Below, in pieces: positions 4,251 through 5,195 of a DNA stretch of 14,706 nt (the stretch's first letter is position 1; every line of letters begins with the position of its first letter). The stretch comes from a virus. The stretch lies in UHGV virus genome UHGV-0056970. One strand, written 5' to 3'. The notes below the pieces were generated by a model. The model was not told the origin of the DNA, did no database searches, and worked only from the letters and a program-made list of their open reading frames with translations. The position numbers were made by a program, and so were the translations under genes.

Positions 4251-5195
4251 TTAATTAATATTGTCTTTTCTTTGTAGAACTGCGAAAGCCATTAATACCT
4301 CTAAAGTATATCGTCTATAAAACTTCACAAACCCGACGTAGAAAACATAGACGAAGAAAAAGCTAATTAGCACAGAAATTAAACTATAAGAAATACCACT
4401 ACCTTCTACCAAACGAAAAATAAAGGTTAGTAAGGATATCCAAAATGTAATTGTAAAAACCAAACAAATATTTCTGCAAAAGCCATATAATGCAACATAG
4501 TTTTGAATTTTTGATTGATGTTGATTCGAAAATTCATAGACATAATGATAGGCCAGTCTGAAAAGATCATCATGAAGACCAGTTCCAACTTTTAATAATT
4601 CATTGTCTAGTATGAACTTTTTCTCATAGCCGTCTTTAATCATTTGCCATGTAGTACTAGCTAATTGAAATGGCAATGATTGGGAATAACATAACTTTTG
4701 AGTGGCGTAATCCCATGGCGTTATGGGTAATAGCACTGCTTTGATTATGCAGTATTTTATTTTTCTTTTGATATCTTCATCTTGTTCACAACTTGATGGT
4801 ATACAAACGATTTCTAAGTCATCTGACAACTTATTGAATAGATATTGGGAAGGATACCCCAAATTTTCGTTCATATACTTTTCAATAAAAAATGCTGATG
4901 TGATCGAGATAAAATGCCCCGCTATGTAAGATATAATGACTATTGAGGCATAGTTTAAAATACCAAAAATTTGACTTTTACCTCTGAGCAATTCAGTTAA
5001 ATCAACAACAATATCTAAATCAAAGGTCAAACCACAGAAATACATTAACAGGATAAAAAATCCACCAGGTATTAGATATCCAAGAAAATCATAGAACGAG
5101 AATGGATTTTGATTCACTTTTTGACTCCAATATATCCTTATTGTTGAATTCATCAATGTAACTGATAACGTATTGAATATAAACTCCTTACTCAC
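4251..5195 (-). CDS. Hypothetical integral membrane protein (about 4 TM helices), AT-rich cargo gene
   Basis: 314 aa with two N-terminal and two C-terminal hydrophobic segments around a roughly 130-aa soluble region. GTG start with a weak RBS; start uncertain. Strongly AT-rich, unlike flanking prophage genes. Confidence 0.55.
   Translation of the reverse strand: MSKEFIFNTLSVTLMNSTIRIYWSQKVNQNPFSFYDFLGYLIPGGFFILLMYFCGLTFDLDIVVDLTELLRGKSQIFGILNYASIVIISYIAGHFISITSAFFIEKYMNENLGYPSQYLFNKLSDDLEIVCIPSSCEQDEDIKRKIKYCIIKAVLLPITPWDYATQKLCYSQSLPFQLASTTWQMIKDGYEKKFILDNELLKVGTGLHDDLFRLAYHYVYEFSNQHQSKIQNYVALYGFCRNICLVFTITFWISLLTFIFRLVEGSGISYSLISVLISFFFVYVFYVGFVKFYRRYTLEVLMAFAVLQRKDNIN

What the first reader, a model, noticed from the sequence alone, without database searches (positions are those of the whole stretch)
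4251..5195. AT-rich 4-TM membrane protein upstream of xis-int
This gene has very low GC relative to neighbouring int and immunity genes and encodes a protein with paired TM helices at both ends around a soluble core. Int-proximal cargo of this kind in prophages often encodes superinfection-exclusion or abortive-infection functions. No family was recognised by eye.
Basis: inference. Interest (0 to 1): 0.45.

Follow-up and report, generated by a model that had tools for sequence, protein, structure and literature searches.

The report
Orphan Csx27-like prophage membrane protein
The AT-rich gene beside the prophage excisionase and integrase is real and encodes a four-pass inner-membrane protein that is a stand-alone relative of Csx27, the unexplained membrane accessory of Cas13b CRISPR systems; it is probably a phage-conflict module, but none has been tested.

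Summary
A real gene lies on the minus strand. Its true start is the GTG at 5117, not 5195, giving 288 aa. GC is 31% against 47% for int. It has four hydrophobic helices in a 2+2 layout around a ~130-aa helical domain that is predicted to be cytoplasmic. It sits directly upstream of a confirmed xis-int pair in a Klebsiella oxytoca lambdoid prophage.

The protein belongs to a large unannotated family (951 clusters at 50% identity, many phyla). That family is homologous over its full length to Csx27, the type VI-B1 CRISPR accessory protein (hhalign 97.7%, E 1.7e-12; the reciprocal HMM control was clean).

Unlike Csx27, this gene has no Cas13b, no CRISPR array and no conserved partner. It is an AT-rich single-gene cassette in 72 of 74 genomes. 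In enterobacteria it occupies phage cargo slots: upstream of two unrelated xis-int modules, and in the P2 hotspot between the replication and portal genes.

No structural analogue was found. Function is inferred, not shown. The most likely role is a self-contained membrane sensor-effector acting in phage defence or exclusion. Rivals are a DNA-entry block, a phage life-cycle role and an envelope role.

Verdict: a new variant of a known but mechanistically unexplained kind. Interest is moderate.

The parts
4251..5117 (-). CDS of the 288-aa Csx27-like four-TM protein. GTG start at 5117-5115; stop codon at 4253-4251.
   Evidence: start and length. (family and Csx27 homology).
5118..5205 (-). AT-rich leader belonging to the cassette. 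It holds a Shine-Dalgarno GGAG (5128-5125) and one sigma-70-like site (TTGATG-16-TATATT, 5156..5129). The long-ORF extension 5118-5195 is probably not translated.
   Evidence: The promoter is not established: such sites are no more frequent upstream of family members than in shuffles.
5085..5117 (-). Residues 1-11, the start of the N-terminal motif (Q)NPFSxYDFLGYxxPG. It is nearly invariant in the family and shared with Csx27 (FSLYDxLGxxLPG).
5016..5084 (-). TM1 (residues 12-34).
4884..4964 (-). TM2 (residues 52-78). Its conserved residues Y64, G67, H68, S71, S74, S75 and E79 fall on one helical face, in the cytoplasmic half.
   Evidence: The helical periodicity is read from the sequence.
4485..4883 (-). 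Central helical domain (residues 79-211), predicted cytoplasmic. It contains a conserved W..GYPS.YLL block, a hypervariable stretch at 97-180, and the conserved pre-TM3 motif D.FR..YHY..E....H..K.QNYVALYGF.R.
4410..4484 (-). TM3 (residues 212-236).
4323..4394 (-). TM4 (residues 242-265).
4254..4322 (-). Basic C-terminal tail (residues 266-288) with the conserved F.KFYRR..LE..MA motif, predicted cytoplasmic.
4004..4222 (-). Excisionase. It starts 28 nt downstream of the stop codon with no predicted terminator between. This is context, not part of the protein's family.
2877..4043 (-). Tyrosine integrase (context).

Best explanation
Shown here:
- The CDS 4251..5117 (-) is a horizontally mobile, single-gene accessory cassette of a K. 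oxytoca lambdoid prophage.
- Its product is an all-helical protein with four predicted transmembrane helices in a 2+2 layout.
- It belongs to a large, patchily distributed family that is a full-length homologue of the Cas13b accessory protein Csx27. This family stands alone: no Cas13b, no CRISPR array, no conserved partner.

Inferred from charge distribution:
- The protein sits in the inner membrane with N- and C-termini in the cytoplasm, and the ~130-aa central domain is cytoplasmic.

Inferred mechanism:
- It is a self-contained sensor-effector acting in phage-host conflict.
- The fast-evolving cytoplasmic helical domain detects an infection-linked cue.
- The strongly conserved cytoplasm-facing elements then open or perturb the inner membrane. 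These elements are the N-terminal FSxYDFLGYxxPG motif, the polar face of TM2, the pre-TM3 YHY...K.QNYVALYGFxR helix and the post-TM4 KFYRR helix. The protein probably works as an oligomer.
- The outcome is growth arrest or abortive infection that protects the lysogen population from other phages.

On this view Csx27 is a member of this family that was recruited by type VI-B1 CRISPR systems.
For: Identity:
- The gene is real and widely conserved: 584 hits and 951 clusters at 50% identity, across many phyla.
- PADLOC Csx27 matches 101 of 139 family members, and NCBIfam CAS_Csx27 matches 25 of 139.
- I recovered bona fide Csx27 genes next to bona fide Cas13b in type VI-B arrays.
- The family HMM hits these Csx27 proteins at 19-36 bits, on the same motifs.
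- hhalign of the family against 62 Csx27 sequences gives Prob 97.7%, E 1.7e-12 and 205 aligned columns, query 6-273 against Csx27 4-228.
- A Csx27 HMM searched against 1167 ORFs finds 76 hits, all family members. The best non-member has E 0.58.

Architecture:
- The AF2 model has pLDDT 90.
- K+R counts are 18.2 in the central domain and 3.3 in the C-tail, against 1.2 and 0.3 in the two short loops. This gives N-in/C-in.
- Conserved blocks (1-24, 61-96, 181-216, 253-276) all lie on the cytoplasmic side. Variable blocks are 25-60, 97-180 and 229-252.

Conflict-type genomics:
- The gene is lower in GC than its flanks in 72 of 74 genomes (mean -10 points, GC3 -12.5). The dip is confined to the gene.
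- There is no conserved neighbour: 135 Pfam families among 144 adjacent genes. Integrases, type I RM and MADS components occur among them.
- 48 of 82 phage or prophage loci have the order gene-xis-int, with two int/xis types that show no mutual similarity.
- About 9 loci lie in the P2 replication-portal hotspot, where experimentally validated defence systems sit (PMC9519451).
- Presence is variable among prophages with the same integrase.
- The same prophage carries a PD-lambda-5-like MTase/ATPase pair on the other side of int.
Against: - There is no experimental datum for any member of this family.
- Apart from the Cas13b-accessory models Csx27 and tm_4, PADLOC gives only a few weak hits to candidate (PDC) models and none to a validated defence system.
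- Csx27 itself was reported to repress, not enhance, Cas13b interference, and it did not localise to the membrane when RFP-tagged in E. coli (bioRxiv 10.1101/092577).
- Most of the 80 non-enterobacterial loci are not obviously in prophages or defence islands. About 10% sit among polysaccharide-synthesis genes.
- No terminator separates the gene from xis, and no promoter could be established. It may therefore be expressed with xis-int at induction rather than in the lysogen.
- No pore-forming or channel fold was matched.
- Oligomeric state was not modelled.
Confidence: 0.4

Rival explanations
1. It is a superinfection-exclusion protein or nucleic-acid gate. It sits in the inner membrane and blocks, or conducts and hands over for degradation, incoming phage or foreign DNA. 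This is the ssDNA-channel idea proposed for the Csx27 family by Makarova et al. 2019.
For: - The protein is homologous to Csx27.
- The published hypothesis that Csx27-family proteins form ssDNA channels is cited second-hand in PMC7642515, PMC8209922 and PMC11662929.
- The conserved cytoplasmic-face residues are rich in Tyr, Phe, His, Lys and Arg, a composition suited to binding nucleic acid.
- The gene is int-proximal prophage cargo, as many Sie genes are. That comparison is general knowledge, not tested here.
Against: - The periplasmic exposure is tiny (loops of about 16 and 5 residues) and poorly conserved. The large variable domain is cytoplasmic. That suits sensing inside the cell better than intercepting an ejection apparatus.
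- Competence, ubiquitin-like and WYL neighbours, reported as typical of the Csx27 family, were not among the adjacent genes.
- There is no similarity to SieA, SieB or RexB.
Confidence: 0.2
2. It serves the phage's own life cycle or acts as a counter-defence. It would be transcribed together with xis-int at infection or induction. It would modulate the host membrane or damp a host immune effector, by analogy with Csx27 repressing Cas13b.
For: - It has the same strand and a 28-nt gap to xis, with no predicted terminator.
- It occupies the position of the early-left 'ea' genes, such as P22 eaC.
- Csx27 repressed Cas13b interference (bioRxiv 10.1101/092577).
- A promoter of its own is not demonstrable.
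Against: - Most family members in 80 diverse genomes are chromosomal singletons without phage neighbours, which argues for a cell-benefiting role.
- Type VI-B systems are a Bacteroidota feature and are not expected in Klebsiella or E. coli. That point is from my own knowledge and was not tested here.
- The gene is dispensable among prophages with the same backbone.
Confidence: 0.15
3. It has an envelope or general membrane function unrelated to phage conflict. An example would be an enzyme or scaffold acting on lipid-linked or membrane substrates at the cytoplasmic face, carried by prophages as a lysogenic-conversion gene.
For: - The invariant polar residues (Y14, Y64, S74, E79, R215, K265; H68, H191 and H200 nearly invariant) cluster at the membrane-cytoplasm interface, which looks like an active or binding site.
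- Glycosyltransferases, WecG and sugar epimerases/dehydratases are among the adjacent genes in several genomes.
- Int-proximal slots of temperate phages often hold O-antigen-modifying genes, e.g. P22 gtrABC.
Against: - There is no match to any enzyme, transporter or lipid-modifying family by sequence or fold.
- No neighbour is consistent.
- The family-wide anomalous AT-richness and patchy distribution are atypical for housekeeping envelope genes.
- The central domain is hypervariable.
Confidence: 0.15
4. It is a MotA/ExbB/TolQ-like ion-driven stator subunit (compare ZorA of the Zorya system), which shares the topology of two TM helices, a cytoplasmic domain and two more TM helices.
For: The top Foldseek hits in the PDB are MotA, PomA and ExbB chains, which have this topology.
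Against: - Those hits are not significant (E about 1, TM-score about 0.2).
- No MotB/ExbD-like single-TM partner is conserved next to the gene.
Confidence: 0.03

Closest known systems
Csx27 (type VI-B1 CRISPR-Cas accessory protein; NCBIfam NF040557, PADLOC PDLC01605)
   Same: - The two are collinear over their full length (hhalign 97.7%, E 1.7e-12).
- Both have the same 2+2 TM architecture.
- They share an N-terminal FS.YD.LG..PG motif, a TM2 Gly, a pre-TM3 Y...K..Q..Y.F.R motif and a post-TM4 YR(R/K) motif.
- Both are unexplained mechanistically.
   Different: - There is no cas13b or CRISPR array nearby.
- The window protein is 288 aa against about 205-245 aa. It has an enlarged, hypervariable central domain and extra conserved blocks (TM2 GH..S..SS.TIE; W..GYPS.YLL).
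- It does not reach the NF040557 cut-off: no hit at E<0.01. It scores 27.6 bits against my own Csx27 HMM.
- It occurs in Enterobacteriaceae prophages and many phyla, rather than in Bacteroidota CRISPR loci.
The wider 'Csx27 family' of Makarova, Gao, Zhang & Koonin 2019 (FEMS Microbiol Lett 366:fnz088). The paper was not readable here; it is known to me from memory and from citing papers PMC7642515, PMC8209922 and PMC11662929.
   Same: It describes four-TM proteins related to Csx27 that are encoded outside CRISPR loci.
   Different: - The contexts reported as typical (natural-transformation genes, ubiquitin-system multidomain proteins, WYL proteins, a DNA-modification subfamily) were not seen next to this family.
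- Here the gene is a partner-less, AT-rich singleton in prophage cargo slots.
- I could not check whether that paper already lists this subfamily.
Csx28 (type VI-B2 accessory; an octameric membrane pore that depolarises the membrane after Cas13b activation)
   Same: It offers a functional analogy only: a small membrane accessory of Cas13b that acts as a membrane effector (bioRxiv 10.1101/2021.11.02.466367; PMC12669027).
   Different: It is not known to be homologous, and no Csx28 match appeared in any search here. Csx28 carries a divergent HEPN domain, which this protein lacks.
Lambda RexB, P22 SieA and P22 SieB (prophage membrane exclusion proteins)
   Same: They are prophage-encoded inner-membrane proteins, and RexB also has four TM helices.
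   Different: There is no detectable relationship (hhalign probability 0.5% each). RexB needs RexA, whereas this family has no partner.
P2 'old/tin' hotspot cargo and other prophage-borne defence genes (Vassallo et al. 2022, PMC9519451)
   Same: - Homologues at 43-44% identity lie between the P2-type replication gene and the portal gene.
- Like those genes, it is single-gene, mobile and variably present cargo.
   Different: No member of this family is among the validated systems or PADLOC models.

Membership tests
Csx27 proper (NF040557 equivalog) | Scores above the curated NCBIfam cut-off (65 bits) | tested here: not met
   The window protein has no NF040557 hit at E<0.01. Only 25 of 139 relatives hit it, with a best E of 2e-6. 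True Csx27 proteins score 113-147 bits.
Csx27 proper (NF040557 equivalog) | Encoded next to cas13b and a type VI-B CRISPR array | tested here: not met
   No ORF in the window exceeds 660 aa and there is no array. The neighbours are xis and int. No cas genes occur among the neighbours of 80 relatives.
Csx27 proper (NF040557 equivalog) | Modulates Cas13b interference | not testable with these tools
   This needs co-expression with BzCas13b or PbCas13b, as in bioRxiv 10.1101/092577.
Csx27 superfamily (homology level) | Significant, collinear, full-length profile-profile similarity to Csx27 | tested here: met
   hhalign of A2 against A5 gives Prob 97.7%, E 1.7e-12, 205 columns. Against 4 Csx27 sequences it gives Prob 95.6%. 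The reciprocal HMM search was specific: 76 of 76 hits were family members, and the best non-member had E 0.58.
Csx27 superfamily (homology level) | Four TM helices in a 2+2 arrangement with shared sequence motifs | tested here: met
   (helices). (the FS.YD.LG..PG, Y.F.R and YR[RK] motifs aligned).
Csx27 superfamily (homology level) | Genomic association with competence, ubiquitin-like, WYL or DNA-modification genes. These are the typical contexts as I recall them from Makarova 2019, and as cited in PMC8209922. | tested here: not met
   No recurrent neighbour was found. None of these families is in the top-25 Pfam list for 144 adjacent genes.
Prophage moron / accessory cargo cassette | Composition distinct from the surrounding phage genes, with sharp boundaries | tested here: met
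   31% GC against 47-57% in the flanks, with edges at about 4245 and about 5205. The pattern holds family-wide in 72 of 74 genomes.
Prophage moron / accessory cargo cassette | Variably present among otherwise related prophages | tested here: met
   The integrase is in 412 E. coli genomes and the gene in 205. Two small genes take its place in the slot in strains 24AR0070, 0H25 and MB165.
Prophage moron / accessory cargo cassette | Own promoter and terminator, with expression in the lysogen | tested here: inconclusive
   There is one sigma-70-like site at 5156..5129, but the count is no higher than in shuffles. No terminator is predicted before xis. No transcript data are available.
Known anti-phage defence systems (PADLOC 2.0 models) | Match to a model of a validated or candidate defence protein | tested here: not met
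   Only Csx27 and tm_4 (CRISPR VI-B associated) recur. There are a few weak PDC-M48A and PDC-S47 hits.
Superinfection exclusion proteins RexB / SieA / SieB | Sequence or profile similarity | tested here: not met
   hhalign probability is 0.5% for each. One of 139 relatives has a weak Pfam SieB hit at 1.3e-3.
MotA/ExbB/TolQ stator family | Significant fold match and a MotB/ExbD-type partner | tested here: not met

The most novel reading that the evidence does not exclude
Stand-alone Csx27-like proteins may be a widespread, so far unrecognised single-gene membrane immunity module. They would move between genomes as AT-rich cassettes on prophages, in P2 hotspots and in chromosomal islands across many phyla. 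Type VI-B1 CRISPR systems would have recruited Csx27 from this pool. The enterobacterial prophage versions would then give the first genetically tractable handle, in E. coli, Salmonella and Klebsiella with their own phages, on what the Csx27 fold actually does at the membrane.
Probability: 0.3. Interest if true: 0.75.

Novelty: new variant of a known kind. Interest (0 to 1): 0.55.

Why it matters
Csx27 has had no mechanism since 2017. The only proposal, an ssDNA channel, is untested, and work on Csx27 is tied to Bacteroidota CRISPR loci.

This gene shows that close architectural relatives circulate as partner-less cargo in prophages of E. coli (including CFT073), Salmonella, Citrobacter, Enterobacter and Klebsiella. 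The question of what this membrane fold does therefore becomes testable with standard coliphage genetics.

If the gene is protective, it adds a compact single-gene defence to the prophage repertoire. It would also support the pattern that CRISPR accessory proteins are recruited from stand-alone immune effectors.

If it is not protective, it marks a large, conserved, horizontally mobile membrane family (951 clusters at 50% identity) with an invariant cytoplasm-facing site and no assigned function.

Tried and rejected
- Pfam, NCBIfam and PDB sequence searches with the protein and with a 139-sequence profile gave no family. The only hits were noise: Bunya_G2, an ITPR2 fragment and daptide_HExxH.
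- A first AF2 run with 13 close homologues was unusable (pLDDT 56). The second, with 139 diverse sequences, was good.
- RexB, SieA and SieB showed no relationship.
- A search for a conserved partner found none, by BLAST clustering of +-4 genes in 80 genomes or by Pfam and PADLOC on the 144 adjacent genes.
- Ten longer relatives (332-401 aa) carry no Pfam domain, so there are no informative fusions.
- Promoter evidence is lacking: consensus sites upstream of family members are no more frequent than in shuffles.
- The noncoding stretch 5118-5847 has no Rfam match and no significant fold.
- There is no tRNA in the window.
- A literature search for the CFT073 homologue's accession and locus tag, a guessed older CFT073 tag, and the PHROG id found nothing relevant.
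- Makarova et al. 2019 could not be read.
- A functional link to the adjacent ATPase/MTase pair is rejected. E. coli 24AR0070 has that pair without this gene, and CFT073 has this gene without the pair.
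Full report
**1. 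The observation**

The window is a piece of a lambdoid prophage of Klebsiella oxytoca. The target protein is 100% identical to WP_224251237.1, and the same layout recurs in K. oxytoca assemblies.

The ORF 4251..5195 on the minus strand exists. At 31% GC, a stop-free run of this length has a chance probability of about 1e-10.

The 5' end should move to the GTG at 5117, for four reasons:
- All homologues, 275-300 aa long, begin MNQNPFSFYDF.
- phrog_12528 (288 positions) covers residues 27-314 of the long ORF at E 1.3e-154.
- Public gene calls give 288 aa.
- A GGAG lies 7 nt upstream of that GTG.

GC content is 31.1% (GC3 28%), against 47% for int, 50% for xis and 43% for cI. The AT-rich block has sharp edges at about 4245 and about 5205.

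Four hydrophobic segments lie at residues 12-34, 52-78, 212-236 and 242-265, with Kyte-Doolittle maxima of 1.85-2.47. They flank a ~130-residue polar region.

The downstream genes are an excisionase (phrog_2917, 8.5e-43) and a tyrosine integrase.

**2. The family**

Pfam, NCBIfam and PDB sequence searches gave nothing meaningful. The protein nevertheless belongs to a large family:
- 584 hits in the 90%-clustered collection.
- 951 clusters at 50% identity, of which 206 have E<=1e-30. Almost all are 260-320 aa.
- Members occur in Gammaproteobacteria, Bacteroidota, Firmicutes, Chloroflexota, Acidobacteriota, Spirochaetota and others.

In a 139-sequence alignment (A2), eight residues are invariant: Y14, P17, Y64, G67, S74, E79, R215 and K265. 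About 30 more are at least 90% conserved.

**3. Structure and topology**

With A2 as input, AlphaFold2 gave a confident all-helical model (pLDDT 90.2, pTM 0.89). Its helices span residues 8-31, 35-46, 52-86, 116-128, 133-144, 150-168, 185-196, 198-238 and 242-287. TM2, TM3 and TM4 therefore continue well beyond the bilayer.

Across the family, the central domain carries 18.2 K+R on average (net +5.5) and the C-tail 3.3. The two short loops carry 1.2 and 0.3. By the positive-inside rule, the N-terminus, central domain and C-terminus are cytoplasmic. This topology is inferred, not measured.

Conservation is mosaic:
- Conserved blocks are 1-24, 61-96, 181-216 and 253-276. All lie at the cytoplasmic face.
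- The periplasmic halves of the helices (25-60 and 229-252) are variable.
- The centre of the soluble domain (97-180) is hypervariable.

The same pattern holds between close orthologues. Between Klebsiella and E. coli, identity is 94-97% in the conserved blocks and 72-74% in the variable ones.

In TM2, the conserved residues Y64, G67, H68, S71, S74, S75 and E79 fall within an arc of about 140 degrees on one helical face. I read this from the sequence.

No structural relative was found:
- Foldseek against the PDB and BFVD gave nothing with E<0.6.
- The top, non-significant PDB hits are MotA, PomA and ExbB. They share only the topology of two TM helices, a cytoplasmic domain and two more TM helices.

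**4. The Csx27 connection**

The PADLOC Csx27 model matched 101 of 139 family members (best E 2.2e-10). The related 'tm_4' model matched 32. NCBIfam CAS_Csx27 matched 25. Different members matched different, collinear parts of the Csx27 profile.

To test this properly I needed real Csx27 sequences:
- I scanned metagenome contigs for a degenerate type VI-B direct-repeat pattern.
- The family HMM picked out small ORFs beside ~1100-aa ORFs next to the arrays.
- NCBIfam confirmed the small ORFs as Csx27 (113-147 bits; cut-off 65). It confirmed the large neighbours as Cas13b (748-787 bits; cut-off 150).
- A profile search with these sequences gave 65 Csx27 proteins, two of them named as such by NCBI.

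The comparison gave four results:
- hhalign of the family (A2) against 62 Csx27 sequences (A5) gave probability 97.7%, E 1.7e-12 and 205 aligned columns. Query residues 6-273 aligned to Csx27 residues 4-228.
- The aligned motifs are N-terminal FS.YD.LG..PG, the TM2 glycine, pre-TM3 Y...K..Q..Y.F.R, and post-TM4 YR(R/K).
- As a specificity control, I ran a Csx27 HMM against all 1167 ORFs of 83 fetched loci. It hit 76 proteins at E<=1e-3, all of them family members. The best non-member had E 0.58.
- The window protein scores 27.6 bits.

The family is therefore a genuine full-length homologue of Csx27. It is not Csx27 itself:
- It fails the curated cut-off.
- It is longer, with an enlarged central domain.
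- It has extra conserved blocks (GH..S..SS.TIE in TM2; W..GYPS.YLL).
- It has no cas13b or CRISPR array nearby.

**5. Genomic behaviour**

In 80 genomes from many phyla I found no recurrent neighbour. BLAST clustering of the +-4 genes gave no cluster shared by more than 3 loci. The 144 immediately adjacent genes hit 135 different Pfam families. Among them were a few integrases, ResIII, type I RM subunits, MADS components and AAA_21 ATPases. There were also some glycosyltransferases and sugar-nucleotide enzymes.

The gene is lower in GC than its flanks in 72 of 74 loci (mean -10 points; GC3 -12.5; up to -27 points in Pseudomonas). The dip is confined to the gene.

In enterobacterial phage and prophage contigs:
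- 48 of 82 loci have the order gene-xis-int on one strand.
- Two xis/int module types are involved, and they show no mutual BLAST similarity.
- About 9 loci are P2-like, with the gene between the replication gene and the portal gene. Vassallo et al. describe this position as a hotspot for defence systems (PMC9519451).

In E. coli:
- The CFT073-type integrase is in 412 of 5426 complete genomes. The gene is in 205.
- On the same prophage backbone, the slot between xis and yfdR holds either this gene or two small genes.
- The slot on the other side of int holds, in different strains, the ATPase+MTase pair seen in this window, a DarT-family gene with a DUF6977 partner, a STAS-like gene, or hypothetical genes.
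- The ATPase/MTase pair and the Csx27-like gene occur independently of each other.

**6. How it most likely works**

Shown here:
- It is a real gene and mobile accessory cargo.
- It has four predicted TM helices in a 2+2 layout.
- It has a conserved set of residues that, under the inferred N-in/C-in topology, face the cytoplasm, and a hypervariable central domain.
- It is homologous to Csx27.
- It has no partner.

Inferred:
- A partner-less protein must carry both its input and its output.
- The large variable part is cytoplasmic and the periplasmic exposure is minimal. Sensing is therefore most likely intracellular.
- The invariant juxtamembrane bundle plus the polar face of TM2 is the likely effector, acting as a gate or a membrane-perturbing element, probably in an oligomer.
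- Other CRISPR membrane accessories, such as Csx28, are membrane effectors triggered downstream of target recognition (bioRxiv 10.1101/2021.11.02.466367; PMC12669027). By analogy, I favour an infection-triggered membrane effector that protects the lysogen.

My confidence is layered:
- Identity and architecture: above 0.9.
- A role in phage-host conflict: about 0.5.
- This particular mechanism: about 0.3 to 0.4.

Points that weigh against the favoured view:
- Csx27 was reported to repress Cas13b, and it did not localise to the membrane when RFP-tagged in E. coli (bioRxiv 10.1101/092577).
- No terminator separates the gene from xis, and a promoter cannot be established.
- Many non-enterobacterial loci look ordinary.
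- No member of the family has been tested.

**7. Rivals**

- (a) Exclusion or a nucleic-acid gate at the inner membrane. This is the ssDNA-channel idea for the Csx27 family, which I know only second-hand.
- (b) A phage life-cycle or counter-defence role, co-expressed with xis-int.
- (c) An envelope or enzymatic role at the cytoplasmic membrane face.
- (d) A MotA/ExbB-like stator. This rests only on non-significant fold hits.

An artefactual ORF is excluded by the depth of conservation.

**8. Novelty and score**

A non-CRISPR Csx27 family was described in 2019. I could not read that paper. The contexts reported for it (competence, ubiquitin-like, WYL and DNA-modification genes) are not those found here.

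I rate this gene a new variant of a known, mechanistically unexplained kind: a partner-less, AT-rich, prophage-borne subfamily with its own conserved blocks. Interest is 0.55.

It is not a surprise in kind. It does place a long-unexplained CRISPR accessory fold in genetically tractable enterobacterial prophages, including that of E. coli CFT073.

Noticed in passing
window 99-2824 (-): An AAA_15/AAA_21 ATPase (1091-2824, phrog_3940) and a D12 adenine methyltransferase (99-1010) lie between int and the prophage end. The MTase matches PADLOC PD-Lambda-5_B at 2.4e-123. The ATPase's top 25 PADLOC hits did not include PD-Lambda-5_A, so this may be a variant of that RM+Abi-like system. The same pair occupies the same slot in E. 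coli 24AR0070.
   Followed up: partly
L001, L293-L296 (E. coli prophages with the same integrase); equivalent to window ~1-2876: The slot between int and the host junction is a cargo hotspot. Depending on the strain it holds the ATPase+MTase pair, a DarT-family ADP-ribosyltransferase with a DUF6977 partner, a STAS-like gene with two hypothetical genes, or other hypothetical genes.
   Followed up: partly
window 5118-5847: About 730 bp here have no gene in public annotations, and GC reaches 65%. The segment 5406-5657 is 88-92% identical to unannotated DNA in 870 E. coli genomes, where it lies just left of a cI-type repressor. It is probably early-left regulatory DNA. There is no Rfam match and no significant RNA fold. 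ORF 5206-5514 has only a weak phrog_33599 hit (4e-8).
   Followed up: partly
window 9321-9385 and 9441-9474: Short tandem repeats (15 bp x 4.3 copies; 12 bp x 2.8 copies) lie inside the replication-initiator gene 8988-9899. They are probably origin iterons.
   Followed up: no
window 10533-11486 and 11479-13461 (+): Two further DNA methyltransferase-like genes lie in the early-right operon: a Dam family gene (PF05869) and a 660-aa protein with a weak DNA_methylase hit. The prophage therefore carries three MTase-like genes in 14.7 kb.
   Followed up: no
L002 4464-4958 and about 9 IMG/VR P2-like loci (e.g. L137 5464-5961): In P2-like phages, the Csx27-like gene is directly preceded on the same strand by a conserved 165-aa gene (phrog_2284, function unknown). 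This may be a two-gene module in that context, and it is absent from the window.
   Followed up: no
L172 481-1260, L173 9814-10434, L184 568-1203, L250 842-1477: These are bona fide Csx27 genes recovered from metagenomic type VI-B arrays. The L172-type (~245 aa) carries a ~25-residue insertion in the central region relative to the ~206-211-aa type. The central domain is thus length-variable within Csx27 too.
   Followed up: partly
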